DNA of 64,000 bases. It comes from Eledone cirrhosa (taxonomy: Eukaryota). Numbering within the stretch: the first letter of the stretch is position 1; each line of letters begins with the position of its first letter. The DNA lies in assembly GCA_964016885.1 (NCBI GenBank), contig OZ024742.1:249054001-249118000 (forward strand), given 5' to 3'. Shown here one piece after another: positions 2,735 to 62,293 of the stretch. A program made the translations under genes and the position numbers. The notes under the pieces were generated by a model. It was not told where the DNA came from, searched no databases, and saw nothing but the letters and a program-made list of their open reading frames with translations.

Positions 2735-2740
<6 letters not shown>

Positions 2741-3271
2741 GAAAAAAATGAAATTTCATTTCTCACTCTTAGTACGGCTGATGCTTAAATGTAAGAAGTA
2801 ATTTGATTGGTTGGTCAATAAGTATAATACAATTTCGCGCCAGTTCGCGTTACAAAGTTCTTCAAACAGGGGGGGGCTCAGGTTGTTTTTTCATATATGA
2901 GTGTTTGAATTTCTTTTTACTTTAAAAAAGGGGGCTCACGAAGGCTTTTTTTTTTTCATAAATGTAATTTGATTGGTTATAAATGAAATTATGGTGTCAC
3001 GTGAACAAGTTCATTACATTTCGCACCCATATTTGGGAATTTATTTTGTAGCATTTTAGAGAATTTTATGACAAACAAAAGATAATGGTCAAGAGGAATG
3101 GGATGGGAGAATTGTTCTGGTCAGTGAATATAGCAGGTTGTTTTTTCATATATTAGTGAAGTTTGGTTGGTTGATGTAGTCATGTGAATAAGTATATCAG
3201 CTTTCGCGTAAGTTTGTTGGAATTTCTTTTTACTTTAAAAAAAGTGGCTCATGAAGGCTTTGTTTAAATAA

Positions 3272-3335: not shown

Positions 3336-4559
3336 TATTCGACCTGTTTGCATTTATCAATGTTGTGCTATTAACTATGGCCACATACATTTAATCGTTT
3401 TATTCTTTCTGTCACACTTTCTTAACTTTTTGCTTATTCTGGATGAAAATGTATTAACTTTTCACACCATTGACAGCTTTGTGACCTCCTCAAACAATTC
3501 GATTCGCATCTGCTATACTGCGGCTACAACTTCGATCTATGCCAATATTACTATATTGTATACTATATTATTATTATCATTATTAATTCAGTGTGTATCT
3601 CATCAGATACGCACACACACTCTCTGCCTCCCCTCTCTCTTCCTCTCTCTCTCTCTTTCTCTCTCTCACTATATATATATATATATATATAAACGTTGGC
3701 GTTTGTTTTTTTTTTGTTTTGTTTTTTAATATTTGGAATTGTAGCACATGTTATATACGTGTGTGAAGAGAGAGAGAGAGCCAGAGAGGGGGAGAGAGAG
3801 AGAGGGGGCAAGCGTTCACCAAGTAGATGGTATCTCCTGTTCCCTGAAACAATGTAGGTCCCCGTTTGAAGAAACATGTAGCTGTGTCTGATTACCTTTC
3901 TTGTCAAGTTTCAACATGATTGGTTTACTGGTTTTTGAGTGCATTGGTAACATATAGACCAATAAACAAGTAATTTTATATATAGATAGTCTTCACTTTA
4001 TCTTAAAAAACAACTATTTCACGTTCGATGAGACAGCCTCCTGAAAAAAATCAGGAACAGTCGCTGTAATAAAAGTTGTTTCTACATATGTCAACCAAGT
4101 CATGTAATGGCATGTATATACGAACAATCTTCACAAATATATGGGGATGAATTTAGCTGTTTTATAAAAGAAAACTTGAGAAGATACCTAAATAACTGAT
4201 TTATTTTGCGGAGGGAAATTTTGGGTAAACTGAAAAGTCTTCCCAAATATCGTCAATAATAGAATCCCTAACATGTTGTTCATTATAAACTTGAGTAACA
4301 CAAAATGTGTCTCTCTTTTGATACACTTATAACAAAAAGTTAGAAAAAACTAGGAACTGATATATATTTCAAACTTATGGACTCCCGACAACACCTCCTT
4401 TTTACATTTTCTCACCCAAAACACACCCGGACCAATATCGTATTTAAGTTAACAAAGACAAATCGACAAAACACCACCGGTTAGAAGAGACAAAACAATA
4501 TTCAAGAGGAAATATCATTGTCTCTTCTCTTCGTCTTCGCTCACTTATTCCTGAGAGGG

Positions 4560-6330
4560 TCATATCGGCATGATCCTCAAACATTTCTTCTAGCTGGTCC
4601 TGTTAGAAGCAACCATCTCCCTCTTGCCCGGGTTTGCACCTGAATCTCCTGCCGGATAGTTTTGCCCGTACACTCTAGCGATTCTTTCCTGAGACATTCT
4701 AACCACAAGCCCATTGTATCGGAGCTGTGATCCCTCAATTCTGAGAAGTAGCGGTACTATTTGCAGTGTATCTTTGATCTCCGAGCTATGCACTCTATCG
4801 AGTAACGTTACTCCAAAATCTCATCAGGGGAACCACATACCGGCCGCTTGTATTCGCGATCGTATTCTTTCGGTTATTACTCAAGATTCATTATCATAGC
4901 TAAGGTTTGGCACGAGTACCGAATTGAAGACAGGGAACCTGGCCGCCACACCCACCTCCCTACCCCCGATTACAAATGCTGAAGCTGGTGCATTACTGCA
5001 CCTGCTCCTGCAATTCGTGCCTCCTGCCTTCCATCCCTTGCGAATACGACCACGAGATACATGAAATTCTCCCCCCCCCCCTTCAGTGGAAGTCCATTTA
5101 CATGTAGAGTGCACTGCACAGGCTTCCTGTAGGTGACAAGATTCTCAGATATCGTAACACTTGTTTCCATTCCATCCATGCAGCACTCGGCATCAAACCT
5201 ATCAAGTGCAAGTCGGAGCCAGCTGAATTTACACCCACCATTAATGATAATTCTTCCAACCCGGCTGCGTATGTTAATCCTGTTCATGTAAATGATAAAA
5301 AGTTGAGGTGACAGTACGCACCCTTGTCGGAATCATATTTACACATTGAATTGTTTTGATTAAGCATCATTTATCCGAACACAAATACTTGGGCATACGT
5401 ACAGAGACATCAGGACAGCAAGGAGCTGACCATCGATCCCATACTCCTGCAGACCATCCCACAGTAGGTCTCGAGGAAATCGATCATATGCCTTTTCAAG
5501 ATTGACAAAACAAAAATAAAGCTCTTGGCAATACTCCTAGTATTTCTCGAAGACCTGCCGCAGTGTGAATATTTGCTCGGATGTGCTGCGTCCAGGGCGA
5601 AAACCACACTGTTCATCAGCTTACTTGGACTCTTTACCAGACACTTAGCATAGACTTTACCGGGAGGTTTAACAAGAAGATCCCTCTGTGATTGGGACAA
5701 TCTCTCTTGTATCCCTTTTTAAAAATTTGGATTATCATTCTCTATAGTCATTCCTTAGGTGCCTTTCCCGAGATCCAGGCCATCCGGCACACACGAGTCA
5801 ACCAGAGAACACTTTGTCTATCTCAGGCTTTTAAGATTTCATCTTCCACAGCGACCTTGCTACATTTGAACAATTTAAATGCTCTGGTTGCCTTAGCCAC
5901 TGAGAGATTAGCCACCACTCACAGATGCACCTCGTGTACTTCCGAAGAGGCTATTGTGATCGGGTTTAGGGGATCAGAAAAGTATTCTCTTCACCTCGTA
6001 AGGATGCACCTGCTGAAGAGAGGAGAACCACAACGCGTTCTTGATAGAAGGTGTGGAAGAGGTCTACTTATTACGATAACGCGGATGTTTTGCCCGAACA
6101 CTTTACTAGCTGATCTGAAGTCGGATTCCAGCTTAACTCCAAAGTCTTCCCTTGTCTTAACTTTGGACGCCTTTACTGTCTCTGCTGCGATTATTCGTGC
6201 TTGCTTGTACTGCAAGTGCAAGAAAGAGGATTTATTTCTAAGCCAAGCTTTCTAAGCCTCTTTCTTTGCTCGGATGTAATCTTTGACCTCTTGATTTAAC
6301 AAAGTCTGCACACAATAAAAAATAAGGAGC
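4560..6330 (-). mobile_element. Decayed RTE-clade LINE (RT region)
   Basis: Fragments NQEVKDYIRAKKEA, LLVKPPGKVYAKCL, RQGCVLSP and LRLALDRFDAEC; many stops and frameshifts; similar to 52780-53935. Confidence 0.8.
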
Positions 6331-16847: not shown

Positions 16848-16872
16848 AGTGTATATATATATATATATATAT

Positions 16873-17333
16873 ATAAAGGACGTAAAATAAGAAAATATTT
16901 TTTTAAAAAAATTAAAAAAAAATTTTTTTCTTACTTAAATTTTCACTCCAACTAATTAGTTTCTGCAATGGGATAAAGACAGTTATGTAATCCAACTGTC
17001 GAGAATTCATTGCGTCATCAGGAAGTCTATTCTCAGTTAAGTCTCCGCGGACTTAACTGAGAATAGACTTCCTGATGACGCAATGAATTCTCGACAGTTG
17101 GATTACATAACTGTCTTTATCCCATTGCAGAAACTAATTAGTTGGAGTGAAAATTTAAGTAAGAAAAAAATTTTTTTTTAATTTTTTTAAAAAAATATTT
17201 TCTTATGTTACGTCCTTTATATTATTGTTCTGCATTCTCCTGCATTGAACCACCTAGGTACTATGACATAACCTGTGTATTTGCTGGCATGGGCGTGCAT
17301 CTGTGCGCTTATGTTAGTTGATATATTAAATTA

Positions 17334-27852: not shown

Positions 27853-28234
27853 ATTATTTATTCAAAGTAAAGGCAAAGTTAACCTCGACTGAGTTCAAAT
27901 CCTGCCGAGGTTAACTTTGCCTTTCATCCTTACGTGGTCGATAAAATAACAAAAAACAGTAAAGCGTATCAGTGAGCTGCTCAACATTACCAGAGAGACC
28001 AATTACATCAATAGTCAAATCAAGAGAACTCAAACTATACGGTTATATAAAAAGATCAACTCGTCGTGTTATGCCTGGAAGGAAGGTTGGCTGGTGGGAG
28101 AGCAGTGGCCGGCAGCCAAAACGATGGCTAATTTTAGTGCCGTGTCGCACAGAATTTAGACGCCTCTCATTTTGATATGTCATCTGTTTGTGCTGATATA
28201 TATATAAATATATATATATATAGGAAAAAGTATG

Positions 28235-28331
28235 ACCCCAACGGCAGAGATCAAACCCTTTCGACGGCTATTTCTGGACTAAATTAGAATTTTTAGCCTG
28301 GTGAATAAATAACCGAACTTGTCAAGGGGGC
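28235..28331 (-). ncRNA. Decayed family A hammerhead (core deleted in the right-arm copy at 30968-31052)
   Basis: Composite of both arms: gccccc TTGACAA g..cggctattt..aaatagccg tc GAAA cggc ttgagctct gccg TC ggggg. Confidence 0.6.
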
Positions 28332-29024
28332 ACTTCCTTATATGGGAAGATTGTAGTTGTCAAGAGGATTGGTTAACATTTGTTGTAAACACAAATAAGT
28401 CTATCATGGCATTTGGTGGGAGGTAGAGGCGGCTGAACTTGACTGTAGAACAATAGGGAAGTGACTGGAGCGGTCAAGCGTTGAAGGTGATATGTATACA
28501 GCAGATTCTAAGGATAGTGTATGAAGTGGAAGAGGGAGGTTATAGAATAGGTAAATCGAATGAGAGTAGGAGACAATAAAAGATAATAGAAAGAAAGACA
28601 AATTTAATAAAATATATAAAATTAGATAGTGAGAAATGAATTAAAAAAATCACAATGCTATCTTACAATTACAAGTTAATAAGTTGAGAATAGAAAAAAC
28701 ATGTAGAATGAGTAATAACAAAACTGATACAAAATTAAAGGGGTTTTAAATCATCTGCTATAAGTAGTTAGTAAAACGTATCCGGCCAATTCTATCTTAA
28801 AATTACAGGGGTCGGGGAACTGATGCTACAGAGGCGCGATGGGCTGCATCGGAGTAGGCGAAATGGGAAAAGCAGACGAGGAAGAAAATAGGGCGTGGAA
28901 GGAAGTGATAGGATGAAACAGGGGGAAGAAGAAGACAAAGAGGGAAAGAAAAGTGATACATCTCCCTATTTAAGCTGGGGTTTTCCCTAACTTATTCGGC
29001 AAGTGGGGGACTATCAGCCCTTGT

Positions 29025-30142
29025 CTACCCACCCGGGTCGTTATGAGGTTTGAGGGCGAGGTAAGTCCTACGCAATCTGTGTTTGCATGCGGTTTCCAGT
29101 TCGTCTTTCTTGTTTAGGAGTTGATCCTTCGAAAACAACATTTGTAATGTTTCCTCCGAGCATAAGTTACACGGACGGCGTTCTCCCGTGTAAGAGTTAG
29201 CTTTGGACGGTAAGTTCCAAGTGAGATTGTAGGTTATATTATTATCTTTGAGGTCCCAGATGTGGCCCGAACGTGTAGTGGCATGTCGCCGGACCGGGTT
29301 TCGGAAAGTTTGTCGGTGTTGGTAGAGCCGGGTCTTGAAGTCACATGCGGTTAATCCTATATAAGCTTTGTTGGAGGTGTCCGTCCTCACGTTGCACTGG
29401 TAGATCACGTTACGTTCTCGGCATTTGTTGTTGAGGGGGCACGTAGATCTATCAGGGCAGTTACACCTCCTCGTCGGCTCTCCACTGATGTCTAGGTTAT
29501 TTCTTCCATAGGGGTTGAGTTTTTTGTTGTTTGAGGAGACGATGTTTTGTGCGAAGTTAGGTGTGGTGCTGTAGGAGAGTTTTATGTTGTTTTTGTTGAT
29601 TATGTTGTGGTAGCGGTGTTGTAGTGGGAAATGTTTTTCGAGGAGTCTAAAGAAGATTTTCCCGATAGGTGTTGCAACCTCGGCATTATGGGGAGGATTG
29701 AACCACATTACGTTGCGTGAGTGGCGGTGTCGCCTGCTGGATCCGCTAAGGGAAGCTGGATAAAAGGATATTTCCTCCCGTAAGCCACTCCGCTTGAGGG
29801 GCTGGTTGTAATGAGGCGCGTGTTCGTCGAATATCTGATCATTAGCGGAAAAACGAGATATGCGGAGGGAGATGTTTTTAACCAGGCTATTGGTGATGTT
29901 TCTATGATGGTTAGAGCGGCGGTGGTTGTAGTGCAGGTTGTCATTTGGTTTCCTGTATGGGTAGTACTGATCATTTTCGAGGTTAAGGGTAACGTCCAGG
30001 TAATTGGCTCGGGTTAGGGATGTTTGTAGGGTGATTTTAAATCCCCAGTCCTGGAAGAAGTTGATTAGTTGTTTACGGACCCGGTCTGTACTACTGGGGT
30101 TGTACCCTTTAAGGGTGAGGAGCCCATCATCCCGGTACAATC
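29025..30142 (-). pseudogene. 5'-truncated PLE ORF: RT C-terminal half plus GIY-YIG endonuclease (Hydra-clade-like)
   Basis: GLYRDDGL, NYLDVTLNL, WFNPP, CNCPDRSTCPL (CxCx5C), NVIYQ..AYIG, FKTRLYQH, CNLC; the ORF 5' end in the track is read through the inversion junction. Confidence 0.9.
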
Positions 30143-30686
30143 CACGCCGTCCGTGTAACTTATGCTCGGAGGAAATATTACAAATGCTGTTTTCGAAGGA
30201 CCAACTCCTAAACAAGAAAGACGAACTGGTAACGGCATGCAAACACAGATTGCGTAGGACTTACCTCGCCCTCAAACCCCATAAGGACCAGGGTGGGTAG
30301 ACAAGGGCTGATAACCGCCCACTTGCAGAATAAGTTAGGGAAAACCCCAGCTTACATAGGTAGATGTATCTCTTTTATTTTCCTCTTTGTCTTCTTCTTC
30401 CCCCTGTCTCATCCTATCACTTCCTTCCACGCCCTATTTTCTTCCTCGTCTGCTTTTCCCCTTTCCCCTACCCCGATGCAGCCTATCGGGCCTCTGTAAC
30501 ATTAGTTCACCCACCCCTGTAATTTTAAGATAGAATTGGCCGAATACGTTTTACTAACTACCTATAGAAGATGTGTTAAAACCCCTTTAATTTTGTATCA
30601 GTTTCTACAAGTTTTTGTCTATACTCAACTTCTTAACCTGTAATTGTAAGATAGCATTGTGAGTTTTTTATTCATTTCTCACTATC

Positions 30687-30748
<62 letters not shown>

Positions 30749-31144
30749 ATTTCTTTCTATTATCTTTTATTGTCTCCTACTCTCATGCGATTTACCAATT
30801 TTATAACCTCCCTCCTCCACTTCATACACTATCATTAGAATCTGCTGTATTGTTCTACAGGTAAGGTCAGCCACCCCTACCTCCCACCAAATACCATGAT
30901 AGACTTATTTGTGTTTGCAACAAATTTTAACCAATCCTCTTGACAACTACAATCTTCCCATGTAAGGAGTTCGGCTATTTATTCACCAGGCTAAAAATGT
31001 TAATTTATTCCAGAAATAGCCGTCGAAACGGCTTGAGCTCTGCCGTCGGGGGTCATACTTTTTCCTATTTCCCACTCTACTACCCTAAGTATTGAGTACT
31101 CTGGTGCGTTATGGTCCATCTGGTTCCTTACCACAATTCCTTTG

Positions 31145-31183
<39 letters not shown>

Positions 31184-56251: not shown

Positions 56252-59200
56252 GGTGGTGGTGGTCGTCGTGGTCATGGTATGGTAGTGGCAGTCGGTGGTT
56301 GTATGGGTGTTGTATGGGTGGTAGTAGTGGTGTGAGGTGTGGTGGTGGTCGTCGTGGTCATGGTATGGTAGTGGCAGTCGGTGGTTGTAAGGGTGTTGTA
56401 TGGGTGGTAGTAGTGGTGTGAGGTGTGGTGGTGGTCGTCGTGGTCATGGTATGGTAGTGGCAGTCGGTGGTTGTATGGGTGTTGTATGGGTGGTAGTAGT
56501 GGTATGACTGGTGGTGGTGGTCGTCGTGGTCATGGTATGGTAGTGGCAGTCGGTGGTTGTATGGGTGTTGTATGGGTGGTAGTAGTGGTGTGACTGGTGG
56601 TGGTGGTCGTCGTGGTCATGGTATGGTAGTGGCAGTCGGTGGTTGTATGGGTGTTGTATGGGTGGTAGTAGTGGTGTGACTGGTGGTGGTGGTCGTCGTG
56701 GTCATGGTATGGTAGTGGCAGTCGGTGGTTGTATGGGTGTTGTATGGGTGGTAGTAGTGGTGTGACTGGTGGTGGTGGTCGTCGTGGTCATGGTATGGTA
56801 GTGGCAGTCGGTGGTTGTATGGGTGTTGTGTGGGTGGTAGTAGTGGTATGACTAGTGGTGATGGTCGTCGTAGTCATGGTATGGTAGTGGCAGTCGGTGG
56901 TTGTAGGGGTGTTGTATGGGTGGTAGTAGTGGTGTGAGGTGTGGTGGTGGTCGTCGTGGTCATGGTATGGTAGTGGCAGTCGGTGGTTGTAGGGGTGTTG
57001 TATGGGTGGTAGTAGTGGTGTGACTGGTGGTGGTGGTCGTCGTAGTCATGGTATGGTAGTGGCAGTCGGTGGTTGTAGGGGTGTTGTATGGGTGGTAGTA
57101 GTGGTGTGAGGTGTGGTGGTGGTCGTCGTGGTCATGGTATGGTAGTGGCAGTCGGTGGTAGTATGGGTGTTGTGTGGGTGGTAGTAGTGGTATGACTGGT
57201 GGTGGTGGTCGTCGTGGTCATGGTATGGTAGTGGCAGTCGGTGGTTGTATGGGTGTTGTATGGGTGGTAGTAGTGGTGTGAGGTGTGGTGGTGGTCATCG
57301 TGGTCATGGTATGGTAGTGGCAGTCGGTGGTTGTATGGGTGTTGTGTGGGTGGTAGTAGTGGTGTGAGTGGTGGTGGTGGTCGTCGTGGTCATGGTATGG
57401 TAGTGGCAGTCGGTGGTTGTAGGGGTGTTGTATGGGTGGTAGTAGTGGTGTGACTGGTGGTGGTGGTCGTCGTGGTCATGGTATGGTAGTGGCAGTCGGT
57501 GGTTGTATGGGTGTTGTATGGGTGGTAGTAGTGGTGTGACTGGTGGTGGTGGTCGTGGTGGTCATGGTATGGTAGTGGCAGTCGGTGGTTGTATGGGTGT
57601 TGTATGGGTGGTAGTAGTGGTGTGACTGGTGGTGGTGGTCGTGGTGGTCATGGTATGGTAGTGGCAGTCGGTGGATGTAGGGGTGTTGTATGGGTGGTAG
57701 TAGTGGTGTGAGGTGTGGTGGTGGTCGTCGTGGTCATGGTATGGTAGTGGCAGTCGGTGGTTGTATGGGTGTTGTATGGGTGGTAGTAGTGGTGTGTGGT
57801 GTGGTGGTGGTCGTCGTGGTCATGGTATGGTAGTGGCAGTCGGTGGTTGTATGGGTGTTGTATGGGTGGTAGTAGTGGTGTGACTGGTGGTGGTGGTGGT
57901 GGTGTCGCCTGGTCAAGGTATGGTAGTGGCAGTCGGTGGTTGTATGGGTGTTGTATGGGTGGTAGTAGTGGTGTGAGGTGTGGTGGTGGTCGTCGTGGTC
58001 ATGGTATGGTAGTGGCAGTCGGTGGTTGTATGGGTGTTGTATGGGTGGTAGTAGTGGTGTGAGTGGTGGTGGTGGTCGTCGTGGTCATGGTATGGTAGTG
58101 GCAGTCGGTGGTTGTAGGGGTGTTGTATGGGTGGTAGTAGTGGTGTGAGGTGTGGTGGTGGTCGTCGTGGTCATGGTATGGTAGTGGCAGTCGGTGGTTG
58201 TATGGGTGTTGTATGGGTGGTAGTAGTGGTGTGAGGTGTGGTGGTGGTTGTCGTGGTCATGGTATGGTAGTGGCAGTCGGTGGTTGTATGGGTGTTGTAT
58301 GGGTGGTAGTAGTGGTGTGAGGTGTGGTGGTGGTCGTCGTGGTCATGGTATGGTAGTGGCAGTCGGTGGTTGTATGGGTGTTGTATGGGTGGTAGTAGTG
58401 GTGTGAGGTGTGGTGGTGGTCGTCGTGGTCATGGTATGGTAGTGGCAGTCGGTGGTTGTATGGGTGTTGTATGGGTGGTAGTAGTGGTGTGAGGTGTGGT
58501 GGTGGTTGTCGTGGTCATGGTATGGTAGTGGCAGTCGGTGGTTGTATGGGTGTTGTATGGGTGGTAGTAGTGGTGTGAGGTGTGGTGGTGGTCGTCGTGG
58601 TCATGGTATGGTAGTGGCAGTCGGTGGTTGTATGGGTGTTGTATGGGTGGTAGTAGTGGTGTGAGGTGTGGTGGTGGTCGTCGTGGTCATGGTATGGTAG
58701 TGGCAGTCGGTGGTTGTAGGGGTGTTGTATGGGTGGTAGTAGTGGTGTGAGGTGTGGTGGTGGTCGTCGTGGTCATGGTATGGTAGTGGCAGTCGGTGGT
58801 TGTATGGGTGTTGTATGGGTGGTAGTAGTGGTGTGACTGGTGGTGGTGGTCGTCGTGGTCATGGTATGGTAGTGGCAGTCGGTGGTTGTATGGGTGTTGT
58901 ATGGGTGGTAGTAGTGGTGTGAGGTGTGGTGGTGGTTGTCGTGGTCATGGTATGGTAGTGGCAGTCGGTGGTTGTATGGGTGTTGTATGGGTGGTAGTAG
59001 TGGTTCGAGGTGTGGTGGTGGTCGTCGTGGTCATGGTATGGTAGTGGCAGTCGGTGGTTGTATGGGTTTTGTATGGGTGGTAGTAGTGGTGTGAGGTGTG
59101 GTGGTGGTCGTCGTGGTCATGGTATGGTAGTGGCAGTCGGTGGTTGTAGGGGTGTTGTATGGGTGGTAGTAGTGGTGTGAGGTGTGGTGGTGGTCGTCGT

Positions 59201-59660
59201 GGTCATGGTATGGTAGTGGCAGTCGGTGGTTGTATGGGTGTTGTATGGGTGGTAGTAGTGGTGTGACTGGTGGTGGTGGTCGTCGTGGTCATGGTATGGT
59301 AGTGGCAGTCGGTGGTTGTATGGGTGTTGTATGGGTGGTAGTAGTGGTGTGAGGTGTGGTGGTGGTCGTCGTGGTCATGGTATGGTAGTGGCAGTCGGTG
59401 GTTGTAGGGGTGTTGTATGGGTGGTAGTAGTGGTGTGAGGTGTGGTGGTGGTCGTCGTGGTCATGGTATGGTAGTGGCAGTCGGTGGTTGTAGGGGTGTT
59501 GTATGGGTGGTAGTAGTGGTGTGAGGTGTGGTGGTGGTCGTCGTGGTCATGGTATGGTAGTGGCAGTCGGTGGTTGTAGGGGTGTTGTATGGGTGGTAGT
59601 AGTGGTGTGAGTGGTGGTGGTGGTCGTCGTGGTCATGGTATGGTAGTGGCAGTCGGTTGT
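56252..59660. repeat. Minisatellite, 86-bp unit, about 40 copies
   Basis: ggtcgtcgtggtcatgg recurs at 56261, 56347, 56433 and onward. Confidence 0.95.
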
Positions 59661-59661
59661 T

Positions 59662-61000
59662 GTACTCAACCATAATTACAGAAAAATCTTCAATAAGAAC
59701 AATGTTAAAATATCCTTCTCCACTACACCTAATCTAGCAGACATCATAGGGATAACTAATTACAGTAAACTCACCAAAACACGGCACCATAACAGCGATA
59801 GGTCTAGACATGACAGCAACTCTAATAACCTTTACGTTTCCCTAGCAGCACCCGATAATAGTGGTGAGACTGGGGAGCATACTGGCGACCAGTACGGGTC
59901 GCAAGGCGGCAACAGAAGGCGCTGTGGCGCGCGGAGTGATAATTGTACTACCCCGCGCGCCATTGGATATAATAGTACTAACTACGGAGATGGCGGCGAT
60001 GGTGTGGATAATAACGTAGGTAGTGATAGTAATTTTCTTTCTTCGGGCACTAGGAGCCACTGCAGCGGCAACGACCGTGGCCGATACAGCAACTGTCGTG
60101 ACCCGAGAAGCTGTCCGCTCAGGGGAAGTTGTCTGACAGACAATGTTATTTATAGGTGCACTGTAACTAGCCATAATAGAGTCAAACATTATATAGGGGC
60201 CACCTCTGGCTCGTTCAAAACTAGATTTCGAACACATCTTCACTCTTTTAGAAACAGGAAGCTAAGGTACTCCACATCACTCGCCAACTACATCACAAAA
60301 TTGAACGACTCCAACTCAGCGTCTCCACATACTGGGAAATTGTCAGCAGGGCAACACCTTACAACTTCAAGAGGAAGTGCCAACTCTGTCTTATGGAGCT
60401 TTACCATATCGTAAGAGCACCCCTACATCTCATCAATAGCAGAGCAGAATCTGTGATAAACTGCGGACACAGAATACAACAGTCACTCTATGGTTGGACC
60501 CCGGTTGATATCTGAACACCATAAACCGGGTCATCCTGTAAAAAACCATAACACGCCGGAGGGCGGTGTGCATAACTAAACATCTGTACACCAACTATGC
60601 CTATAATAAACACAGTAAATTCTGCGTCTCCCTATCTAGGTGAGCTTATAAGATGAGTGTAATAAGGCTATTATTTCTAGCATACCCACTCACACCACGT
60701 ATAGCTTTCAACCCACGAGATGCATTATTTACTTCCGTGAGTTCTTGTTAGATGTGTTTTGTTTCATTTAATCTTATCTCTCGTTGATGAAATACCTAAC
60801 GATTATCTGTTACAAACACAATTTTCAGGGCGAAACAGATTAAATCTGCAGTCTGTCCGAGAGAAGAAATCGTTATTGATACGTTCTGGATATGAAATTT
60901 TGTATCTTACTGTATGCTTCAGTTTAAATATATAAAACATTTGTGGTATAATCTACCCTCGTAATTTTAGACGCAGAATTTACTGTGTTTATTTCTACAT
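59662..61000 (+). mobile_element. 5'-truncated Penelope-like element (thumb, linker, GIY-YIG and 3' pLTR)
   Basis: KIFNKNNVKISFSTTPNL, NCRDPRSCPLRGSCLTDNVIY..HYIG, FKTRFRTH, CQLC, CGH; frameshift ~60320; stop at 60515. Confidence 0.88.
60777..60864 (+). ncRNA. Type I hammerhead in the PLE pLTR (C3U variant, weak stem II)
   Basis: tctctcg TTGATGA ..gggc GAAA cagatt aaatctgc agtctg TC cgagaga; predicted cut after 60857. Confidence 0.7.
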
Positions 61001-61001
61001 A

Positions 61002-61071
<70 letters not shown>

Positions 61072-61639
61072 TTTATATATAAACGGAAAAAATGAAACGA
61101 AATTTCATTTCCCACTCTTAGTACGGCTGTTACTTAAATATAAGTATGTACACGTACATACAGACATGTATACAGACGTACAGTAGTATGTATATATACA
61201 TACATGCACATATATATATATGTACGTATGGATTCACCGAACATTTATTATAATGCTCGGTGTGTTTGTAAAAAAACATCCCTATTAAGCCGTAGTGTCC
61301 AGCAACCATCGTTGCTCGTTTGTTCAACACTGACAAACACACCGAGCATTATAATAAATGTTCGGTGAATCCATACGTACATATATATATGTGTGTACAT
61401 GTATGTATATATATATACATACTACTGTACGTCTGTATACATATATGTATGTACGTGTACATACTTATATTTAAGTAACTGCCGTACTAAGAGTGGTAAA
61501 TGAAATTTCGTTTCATTTTTTCCGTTTATGGTTTTCGGTGCACCCGGCCGATTAACCCACTCGATATGCAAATTGGGCTACTCAGCCGTTAATATGCATA
61601 AGGTAAGTATATACATTCAACAATCTGGCGGGAAGATAT

Positions 61640-61682
61640 ACGTTGCTGACGATAGCTAATAAGCTTGAAACTAGTACAACGT
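61640..61682 (+). ncRNA. Minimal type I hammerhead ribozyme
   Basis: acgttg CTGACGA t agct aata agct t GAAA ctag TA caacgt; predicted cut after 61676. Confidence 0.88.
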
Positions 61683-62062
61683 TCCTTTGTCAGTGTTGAA
61701 CAAACGAGCAACGATGGTTGCTGGACACTACGGCTTAATATGGGATGTTTGTTTACAAACACACCGAGCATTATAATAAATGTTCGGTGAACGCATACGT
61801 ACATATATATATGTGTGTGCATGTATGTATATATATATATACACACTACTGTACGTCTGTATACATATATGTATTACGTATACATACTTATATTTAAGTA
61901 ACAGCCGTACTAAGAGTGGTAAATGAAACTTCGTTTCATTTTTTCCGTTTATGGTTTTCGGTGCACCCGGCCGATTAACCCACTCGATATGCAAATTGGG
62001 CTACTCAGCCGTTAATATGCATACGGTAAGTATATAGGTTCAACAATCTGGCAGGAAGATAT

Positions 62063-62105
62063 ATGTTGCTGACGATAGCTAATAAGCTTGAAACTAGTAC
62101 ATCGT
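62063..62105 (+). ncRNA. Minimal type I hammerhead ribozyme, second unit
   Basis: atgttg CTGACGA tagctaataagctt GAAA ctag TA catcgt; predicted cut after 62099. Confidence 0.82.
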
Positions 62106-62246
62106 TCCTTTGTCAGTGTTGAACAAACGAGCAGCGATTGTTGCTGGACACTACGGCTAAATACGGGATGTTTGTTTACAAACACACCGAGCATTATAAT
62201 ACATGTTCGGTGAATCCATACGTACATATATATATATGTGTGCATG

Positions 62247-62293
<47 letters not shown>

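What the first reader, a model, noticed from the sequence alone, without database searches (positions are those of the whole stretch)
61079..62250. Minimal-hammerhead retrozyme array (423-nt unit) whose inverted arm stops at the cleavage site
Seen: two intact minimal hammerheads 423 nt apart with a palindromic CTAG stem/loop III, in non-coding units that carry their own TA-rich microsatellite. The inverted arm ends ~9 nt 3' of the predicted cut and joins through ACAAA microhomology. It sits ~80 bp from a PLE 3' end, and a related terminus occurs at 2735. Established: minimal type I hammerheads cleave as dimers, and tandem non-LTR retrozymes give circRNAs. Inference: RT ran off a self-cleaved 5' end, tandem units reflect a circular template, and the element spreads new (TA)n targets.
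Basis: partly seen in the sequence, partly recalled or inferred. Interest (0 to 1): 0.78.

Follow-up and report, generated by a model that had tools for sequence, protein, structure and literature searches.

The report
Ribozyme repeat bearing Penelope insertion ends
This is one of over 23,000 copies of a small non-coding repeat with a predicted self-cutting RNA, and its copies end at two fixed sites in back-to-back pairs inside TA repeats, so it is likely pasted in by Penelope-type jumping genes from an uncut or circular RNA, not from a freshly cut one.

Summary
The anatomy is real: two type I hammerhead cores 423 nt apart, an inverted arm ending 9 nt 3' of the predicted cut, and an ACAAA overlap. 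It is one copy of a dispersed non-LTR retrozyme family (23,244 exact hammerhead copies). The headline inference fails: 5' ends do not pile at the cut (9 seen, 7.4 expected in 160 arms; genome-wide 32/26,441 at the cut, 28/30,376 at a control site), and 92 of 160 arms cross it. What is fixed are the 3' ends: two sites about 60 nt apart, each abutting (TA)n. Head-to-head pairs are almost always one short plus one long end (39 to 0, 17 to 0, 19 to 1), and both arms mostly share one haplotype. This is the Penelope-like (PLE) 'tail' signature; two protein-coding PLE families here show the same rule. Best reading: a PLE enzyme likely primes both strands of a cut (TA)n on one circular or uncut multimeric RNA. 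Cleavage, expression and the partner PLE are untested. The neighbour 80 bp away is a second retrozyme, not a PLE end. Known class, with new evidence for how it moves.

The parts
61079..61337 (-). Inverted arm, u10-u276; outer end is the family's fixed 'long' 3' terminus against TA
61333..61337 (.). ACAAA/TTTGT overlap joining the two arms head to head
   Evidence: 16 of 39 such junctions overlap by 1-5 nt
61333..62264 (+). Forward arm, 2.2 units of 423 nt (u79 to u165); ends inside the unit's TA run, about 50 nt short of the usual 'short' terminus
61640..61682 (+). Type I hammerhead copy 1, stem I fully paired, predicted cut after 61676
62063..62105 (+). Type I hammerhead copy 2, U.U and G.U in stem I, predicted cut after 62099
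61794..61896 (+). TA-rich segment, predicted to form a long hairpin; the 'short' terminus (u214-217, 61890-61893) lies at its 3' base
61890..61952 (+). The 'tail' between the two fixed termini (u214-217 to u276), about 60 nt
61002..61078 (.). (TAT)21 plus TA run, left target side
62226..62291 (.). (TA)33, right target side, fused with the unit's own TA run
60605..61000 (+). Neighbour: second hammerhead repeat family B (about 470-nt unit; tiny inverted arm about 60605-60632; hammerhead 60777-60864 with core C3 read as T in this copy)
59647..60602 (+). Neighbour: 3' part of a PLE ORF with Hydra-type motifs (family A), frameshifted, cut at 60602; no sequence link to the 423-nt unit
2735..2795 (-). 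Short long-terminus arm of a sister subfamily, joined in direct orientation to the 3' UTR of a Neptune-like PLE (2796-3265)

Best explanation
This is one copy of a high-copy, non-coding hammerhead repeat (a non-LTR retrozyme) whose copies end at two fixed sites in head-to-head pairs inside (TA)n, and it is likely inserted by a Penelope-like enzyme that primes on both strands of the cut target and copies an RNA with no fixed 5' end, probably the ligated circle. Shown: two 3' termini about 60 nt apart, one-short-one-long pairing, 5' ends spread over the unit, arms crossing the cut site, shared haplotype within a locus. Inferred: a tandem transcript self-cleaves, probably as a dimer, and is ligated to a circle of about 423 nt; the PLE endonuclease nicks both strands of (TA)n; one primer starts at u276 and the other at u214-217, where 3-4 nt of UAU(A) could pair with the primer; each cDNA stops at random after about 400 nt on average; the two cDNA ends join by microhomology or a short insert. 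The hammerhead would make the template, not end the copy.
For: Ends: 4,047 exact long-end+TA and 4,279 short-end+TA matches, reversed controls 0; 1,246 and 715 more long ends in older subfamilies. Pairing: of 89 long-anchored arms, partner short 39, long 0, internal TA 2, other 3, none 45; of 29 short-anchored, partner long 17, short 0, other 4, edge 1, none 7 (about 9 loci are in both sets, and about 3 of the 39 are weak calls); of 60 older-subfamily loci, short 19, long 1, other 20, none 17, no arm 2, edge 1. Two primings rather than fold-back: arm lengths are uncorrelated (rho 0.16, p 0.33), 33 of 39 pairs have 5' ends more than 15 nt apart, and in L046 and L091 the arms share almost no sequence. 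No stop at the cut: (at most about 8% of 121 passes). One template lineage: at 14 common polymorphic sites, discordance is 32/320 between adjacent units, 30/313 between opposite arms and 43% between loci. Ribozyme under selection: stem I pair 3 reads U-G 129, G-U 33, A-U 16, U-A 4, C-G 3, unpaired 9 in 194 copies; the circle folds at z -6.1 and -8.2 against 25 shuffles. Same rule in protein-coding PLEs here: Neptune-like family N has two ends about 62 nt apart, with 6 of 7 inverted pairs short+long by my reading; Hydra-type family E has 23 of 23 resolved end-partner calls short+long (each locus counted up to twice). Literature: the tail equals the gap between two RT start sites (PMC11167929) and is often at one end only (PMC8557442).
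Against: No cleavage, expression or circle is shown; 8 of 9 Xenopus retrozyme dimers did not cleave in vitro (10.64898/2026.07.22.740005). No autonomous partner with matching termini was found: BLAST of the unit against families N, A and B gave at best 17 nt, E 0.08. Half of the long-anchored arms (45 of 89) had no inverted partner detected. Two long+long cases exist, both with a non-TA outer flank (L025, L334). This locus itself lacks the short end. In PAc the RT start site did not differ between strands, and uncleaved RNA was the main substrate, which fits a linear template as well. About 10% of common sites are discordant within a locus and a few loci switch haplotype (L082, L084). Conversion after insertion could inflate within-locus likeness. 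At u244 the two forward units share a private base that the inverted arm lacks.
Confidence: 0.62

Rival explanations
1. Same PLE two-primer insertion, but the template is a linear, uncut multimeric transcript of long source arrays; the hammerhead acts at another step or only with protein.
For: Arrays of 7 or more units exist (L090, L243). In PAc, hammerhead mutants still insert and the ribozyme cleaves only with protein. Homogeneous source arrays would also give shared haplotypes.
Against: No pile of 5' ends that would mark a transcription start; the only large excess is in the TA run. I saw no inverted junction repeated at unlinked loci in the lists, apart from palindromic ones and local duplicates. 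Conservation of the ribozyme across subfamilies about 75% alike needs a role.
Confidence: 0.27
2. One reading: RT runs off the 5' end made by self-cleavage, and the inverted arm marks the cut.
For: This arm ends at u10; 4 of 160 arms end at u421-423.
Against: Expected 2.1 in that window, p 0.16; genome-wide rate at the cut equals two controls; 92 of 160 arms cross the cut; in older subfamilies 2 of 37 arms reaching the cut end near it.
Confidence: 0.03
3. Inverted structures arise by fold-back self-priming of a single cDNA or an antisense template, as proposed for rotifer Penelopes.
For: PMC3846280 reads junction palindromes this way (passages); 4 of 39 junctions have long palindromic overlaps and 6 of 39 have mirror-like 5' ends, against about 3 expected.
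Against: Most pairs are not mirror images, two share no sequence, and both outer ends are fixed sense-strand sites.
Confidence: 0.05
4. A satellite or MITE-like repeat amplified at the DNA level, with a passenger ribozyme.
For: Local tandem duplicates of whole insertions occur (L043, L044/L045, L091/L092).
Against: Fixed 3' and random 5' ends, dispersal over many contigs, and outer ends that are not symmetric TIRs.
Confidence: 0.03

Closest known systems
Metazoan non-LTR retrozymes (Cervera and de la Pena 2020, PMC7229834; parts 2-3 of 6 and passages read), above all axolotl Rtz331/Rtz353
   Same: Tandem non-coding units with one type I hammerhead each, weak palindromic helix III, U.U at the base of helix II as in HHR_Amex2, highly self-paired predicted circle, tens of thousands of copies.
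   Different: Units of 420-540 nt, at or above their 150-450 range; two fixed termini, inverted pairs and (TA)n targets are not in the parts read; expression and cleavage untested here.
EN+ Penelope-like elements (PAc, PMC11167929, main text read; Hydra, Neptune, Naiad, PMC8557442, passages and section 11 read; Adineta Penelopes, PMC3846280, passages read)
   Same: Two 3' ends forming a tail, head-to-head inverted 5'-truncated copies, tandem units, (TA)n targets, hammerhead upstream of the start sites.
   Different: No ORF; tail about 60 nt, not 30-40; near-strict short+long pairing counted here, where those papers call the tail optional or often one-sided and saw no strand bias in vitro.
Xenopus retrozymes as PLE pLTR derivatives (10.64898/2026.07.22.740005; parts 1-3 of 5, abstract to discussion, read)
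   Same: Same conclusion, that animal retrozymes are non-autonomous PLE passengers.
   Different: Their evidence is co-occurrence and pLTR homology, and they favour local tandem amplification; here it is insertion anatomy, with no pLTR homologue found.
Non-autonomous Chlamys elements such as MRC1 (PMC8557442, passage)
   Same: Non-coding PLE passengers with multicopy head-to-tail insertions.
   Different: They resemble their partner at the 3' end; that clade is described as lacking canonical hammerheads.

Membership tests
Non-LTR retrozyme | Tandem units of a few hundred bp, each with a type I hammerhead | tested here: met
Non-LTR retrozyme | No protein-coding capacity | tested here: met
   Only TA-derived frames over the array; six PLE protein probes hit nothing at 61-62 kb
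Non-LTR retrozyme | Dispersed, many copies | tested here: met
Non-LTR retrozyme | Highly self-paired monomer circle (predicted) | tested here: met
   z -6.1 and -8.2 for two units
Non-LTR retrozyme | Self-cleavage as monomer or dimer | not testable with these tools
   Core and paired variation present; activity needs the bench
Non-LTR retrozyme | Expressed as linear and circular monomer | not testable with these tools
   No RNA run available
Non-LTR retrozyme | No LTR, PBS or PPT | not tested
   No LTR-type terminal repeat seen in the maps; PBS and PPT not searched
Minimal hammerhead (min-HHR, PMC4209133) | No helix III, helix II 7-8 bp, helix I 4-5 bp | tested here: not met
PLE-mobilised element | Two 3' termini (tail) | tested here: met
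PLE-mobilised element | Head-to-head inverted, 5'-truncated copies | tested here: met
PLE-mobilised element | (TA)n target preference (Hydra, Naiad) | tested here: met
   Most outer ends abut TA in the 30 loci found without regard to ends
PLE-mobilised element | Sequence likeness to the pLTR of an autonomous PLE | tested here: inconclusive
   No match to families N, A, B; only these three were compared
Autonomous PLE | RT plus GIY-YIG ORF | tested here: not met

The most novel reading that the evidence does not exclude
Penelope-type insertion is an obligately asymmetric two-primer reaction: a dimeric enzyme starts one cDNA at each of two sites about 60 nt apart, one per target strand, on a single ribozyme-made circular RNA and rolls through the ligation junction. 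That one mechanism would explain the PLE tail, the head-to-head inversions, the tandems and retrozyme spread, with a Hydra-type PLE (family E, itself in this window) as a candidate driver.
Probability: 0.35. Interest if true: 0.78.

Novelty: new member of a known kind. Interest (0 to 1): 0.55.

Why it matters
A 2020 review says that metazoan retrozyme repeats show no motif that tells which retrotransposon moves them (PMC7761336, passage), and a 2026 preprint infers a PLE origin from co-occurrence and pLTR homology only. Here the insertion anatomy itself is the PLE signature, counted on well over 100 insertions. The near-strict short+long pairing constrains how PLE tails and inversions form, which the in vitro work left open. 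The lack of any stop at a conserved ribozyme site is indirect evidence for a circular template. A 423-nt RNA with two mapped start sites is a ready substrate for the existing PLE assay. Six searches listed no paper on this family or on tail pairing in retrozymes. The supplement of PMC7229834 could not be read, the preprint's supplements were not seen, and Repbase/Dfam were not searched; any may hold this repeat.

Tried and rejected
Run-off at the cut: rejected. Rfam: no hammerhead family listed. Pfam: 0 families for two frames of the neighbouring PLE fragment; its clade label rests on motifs compared with PMC8557442 section 11. Expression: no RNA holder listed. Three contig sets of unknown kind from one sample, possibly the assembly's own, were laid on 61900-62190: loose TA ends at 61952 were listed in 2 of 3 runs and none at 62099 among the rows shown (299 hidden), which is not independent support. 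The rest of the locus was not covered by reads. snRNA-type internal promoter (idea recalled from newt satellite 2): ATGCAAAT is kept at u312-319 in 3 of 4 aligned units, but 3 U2 genes of this genome had no octamer within 700 nt and no clear shared element; dropped. Family D as partner: L242 proved to be an insertion into D with a 9-nt duplication, not a mixed pair. Family N as partner through 2735: one direct-orientation join only; the other 19 fetched loci with that variant motif showed retrozyme or unrelated flanks, none N. The missing short end of this locus was not found in the next 9 kb. A first partner-calling script gave false 'long' calls on mutated read-through and was replaced (then 32); a regex end census was too insensitive and was not used. 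Rows dropped before counts: L045, L092, L151 (local duplicates); u116-170 left out of the hazard, u112-212 out of the variant calls. Earlier findings: three look-ups returned nothing.

Full report
Observation. Positions are numbered from the base after the first predicted cut (61677 = u1). The locus is a minus-strand arm (61079-61337, u10-u276) joined head to head, through a 5-nt ACAAA overlap, to a plus-strand arm of 2.2 units (61333-62264, u79 to u165), between a (TAT)n/TA run and (TA)33. The two hammerhead cores lie 423 nt apart. Copy 1 has a fully paired 6-bp stem I; copy 2 has U.U and G.U there. The motif has the canonical metazoan type I layout, not the min-HHR of PMC4209133 (passages); a U.U at the base of helix II is also in axolotl HHR_Amex2 (PMC7229834). 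Rfam listed no hammerhead.

Family. The window lies in a 3.0-Gb animal genome; that it looks like a cephalopod is my recall, not a call result. The unit is dispersed: 1,449 candidates, the 41 long matches listed at 95-100%; 23,244 exact 33-nt cores; 30,376 exact matches to a 20-mer just 3' of the cut; reversed controls 0. Older subfamilies of 426-538 nt, about 75-85% alike, keep the core. In 194 copies, stem I pair 3 reads U-G 129, G-U 33, A-U 16, U-A 4, C-G 3 and unpaired 9; these are related copies, so it is a few events, not 194. Folded as circles, two units score z -6.1 and -8.2 against 25 shuffles; the TA-rich part forms a long hairpin.

The 5' ends are not at the cut. From the first 90 of 4,047 listed long-end matches and the first 30 of 4,279 short-end matches (all on contig 1) I traced 160 arms, after dropping three local duplicates. 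Outside the TA run, 115 ends in 46,132 nt give one stop per about 400 nt. At -3..+3 of the cut there are 4 ends (2.1 expected, p 0.16), at -3..+20 there are 9 (7.4 expected); 92 arms cross the cut, 18 of them twice or more. The upper bound for stopping at the cut is about 8% of 121 passes. Genome-wide, matches with all four upstream bases changed number 32 against 26,441 intact at the cut, 28 against 30,376 at +13 (a slightly stricter pattern) and 25 against at least 23,244 at -20; Fisher p 0.30 and 0.69. Some of these matches are small indels, in all three sets.

The 3' ends are fixed and paired. In 30 loci found without regard to ends, outer ends fell mostly at u276 or u214-220, next to TA. 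Of 89 long-anchored arms, the inverted partner ended short in 39, long in 0, in the internal TA run in 2, elsewhere in 3, and none was detected in 45. Of 29 short-anchored arms the partner ended long in 17, short in 0 (about 9 loci are shared between the sets, and about 3 of the 39 are weak). In 60 loci of older subfamilies: short 19, long 1, other 20, none 17, no arm 2, edge 1. The two long+long cases seen (L025, L334) each have a non-TA outer flank. Some 'none' cases hide partners of about 15 nt (L031). Of 39 junctions, 16 overlap by 1-5 nt, 4 are blunt, 15 have inserts and 4 have long palindromic overlaps. Arm lengths are uncorrelated, 33 of 39 pairs are not mirror images and two share almost no sequence, so the arms are two separate primings.

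One template lineage. At 14 common polymorphic sites, adjacent units differ at 32 of 320 and opposite arms at 30 of 313, against 43% between loci; background at other sites is 3.2-4.4%. A few loci switch haplotype, and conversion after insertion is not excluded. At this locus the forward units share three private bases, and the arm lacks the one it covers.

Comparison with PLEs. In PAc, RT starts at two internal sites whose gap is the genomic tail; the protein cuts and extends both strands and is predicted to be a dimer; ribozyme cleavage was not needed, and no reads ended at the cut (PMC11167929). PLE copies often carry an inverted 5'-truncated copy and a tail at one end only, and Hydra and Naiad elements target (TA)n (PMC8557442). 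In this genome a Neptune-like family (N) has two ends about 62 nt apart, with 6 of 7 inverted pairs short+long by my reading, and a Hydra-type family (E) has two ends about 80 nt apart, with 23 of 23 resolved calls short+long. The retrozyme thus follows the rule of the protein-coding PLEs around it.

Partner. Not identified. The unit does not resemble N, A or B. Two insertions join a long-ended retrozyme arm directly, head to head, to a short-ended arm of family E (L054, L239). One joins it to another hammerhead family (L040), and 2735 joins it in direct orientation to N. E is very abundant, so this is a lead only.

Neighbours. 60625-61000 is a second non-coding hammerhead repeat (B; 1,735 candidates, the 20 best at 92-100%, no PLE frame near the 19 other copies fetched) with its own two ends and inverted pairs; its core C3 reads T in this copy. 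The 423-nt family lies within 1.5 kb in 4 of those 19 copies, which fits shared AT-rich targets. PLE A is cut at 60602.

TA seeding. The longest pure TA run inside the unit has a median of 12 nt, reaches 20 nt in 14 and 50 nt in 4 of 133 complete passes. L250 holds about 400 nt of foreign sequence inside that run, with the unit continuing on both sides. 44 5' ends fall in the run, about 25 expected, partly an alignment effect. This locus's right arm ends there too; loss by slippage between TA runs, or priming in the run, are both possible.

Mechanism and odds. PLE-type two-primer insertion: about 0.9. Within it, circle against uncut multimer about 2 to 1: a ribozyme kept across subfamilies must act somewhere, yet copying never stops at it and no transcription start shows. 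Against this, PAc uses uncleaved RNA and most Xenopus dimers did not cleave. The circular-template idea itself is in print as a proposal (PMC4209133, PMC7229834).

Verdict. Interest 0.55.

Noticed in passing
window 28223-31145: Head-to-head copy of Hydra-type PLE family E: short end left, long end right, with an open RT-thumb to GIY-YIG frame of about 420 aa on the minus arm. Candidate driver of the retrozyme.
   Followed up: partly
window 16870-17220 and 39534-39620: Another hammerhead family (long helix II, helix III CTAATTAG); at 17 kb it is a mirror-like head-to-head pair.
   Followed up: no
window 44635-44668, minus strand: Small hammerhead with GTAC helix III and U.U at the base of helix II; relatives in L062, L110, L138.
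   Followed up: no
window 60605-61000: Second retrozyme-like family B, about 470-nt unit, long helices; a small repeat often sits at its AT-rich short end.
   Followed up: partly
window 56253-59664: 86-nt G/T-rich minisatellite, 39.6 copies, 96% matches, abutting the PLE A fragment.
   Followed up: no
L016 (minus strand, about 1980-2560 of the reverse complement) and upstream in L351: A distant relative of the 423-nt family: same layout, ATGCAAAT, CTAG helix III, different helix II, ending at the equivalent long site.
   Followed up: no
L242:5385-6290: Single-arm insertion into a PLE family D copy in non-TA DNA with an apparent 9-nt target duplication; the junction recurs inverted at 4048-4641.
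   Followed up: partly
all fetched loci: At least eight distinct hammerhead types recur in about 1 Mb of flanks; the TA microsatellites hold nested PLEs and retrozymes.
   Followed up: no
G000:C3:307.35-307.45 Mb: U2 snRNA genes in a tandem array of about 2.2-kb period; no octamer upstream in 3 copies read.
   Followed up: no
L043, L044/L045, L091/L092, L087: Whole insertions duplicated locally in tandem between TA runs.
   Followed up: no
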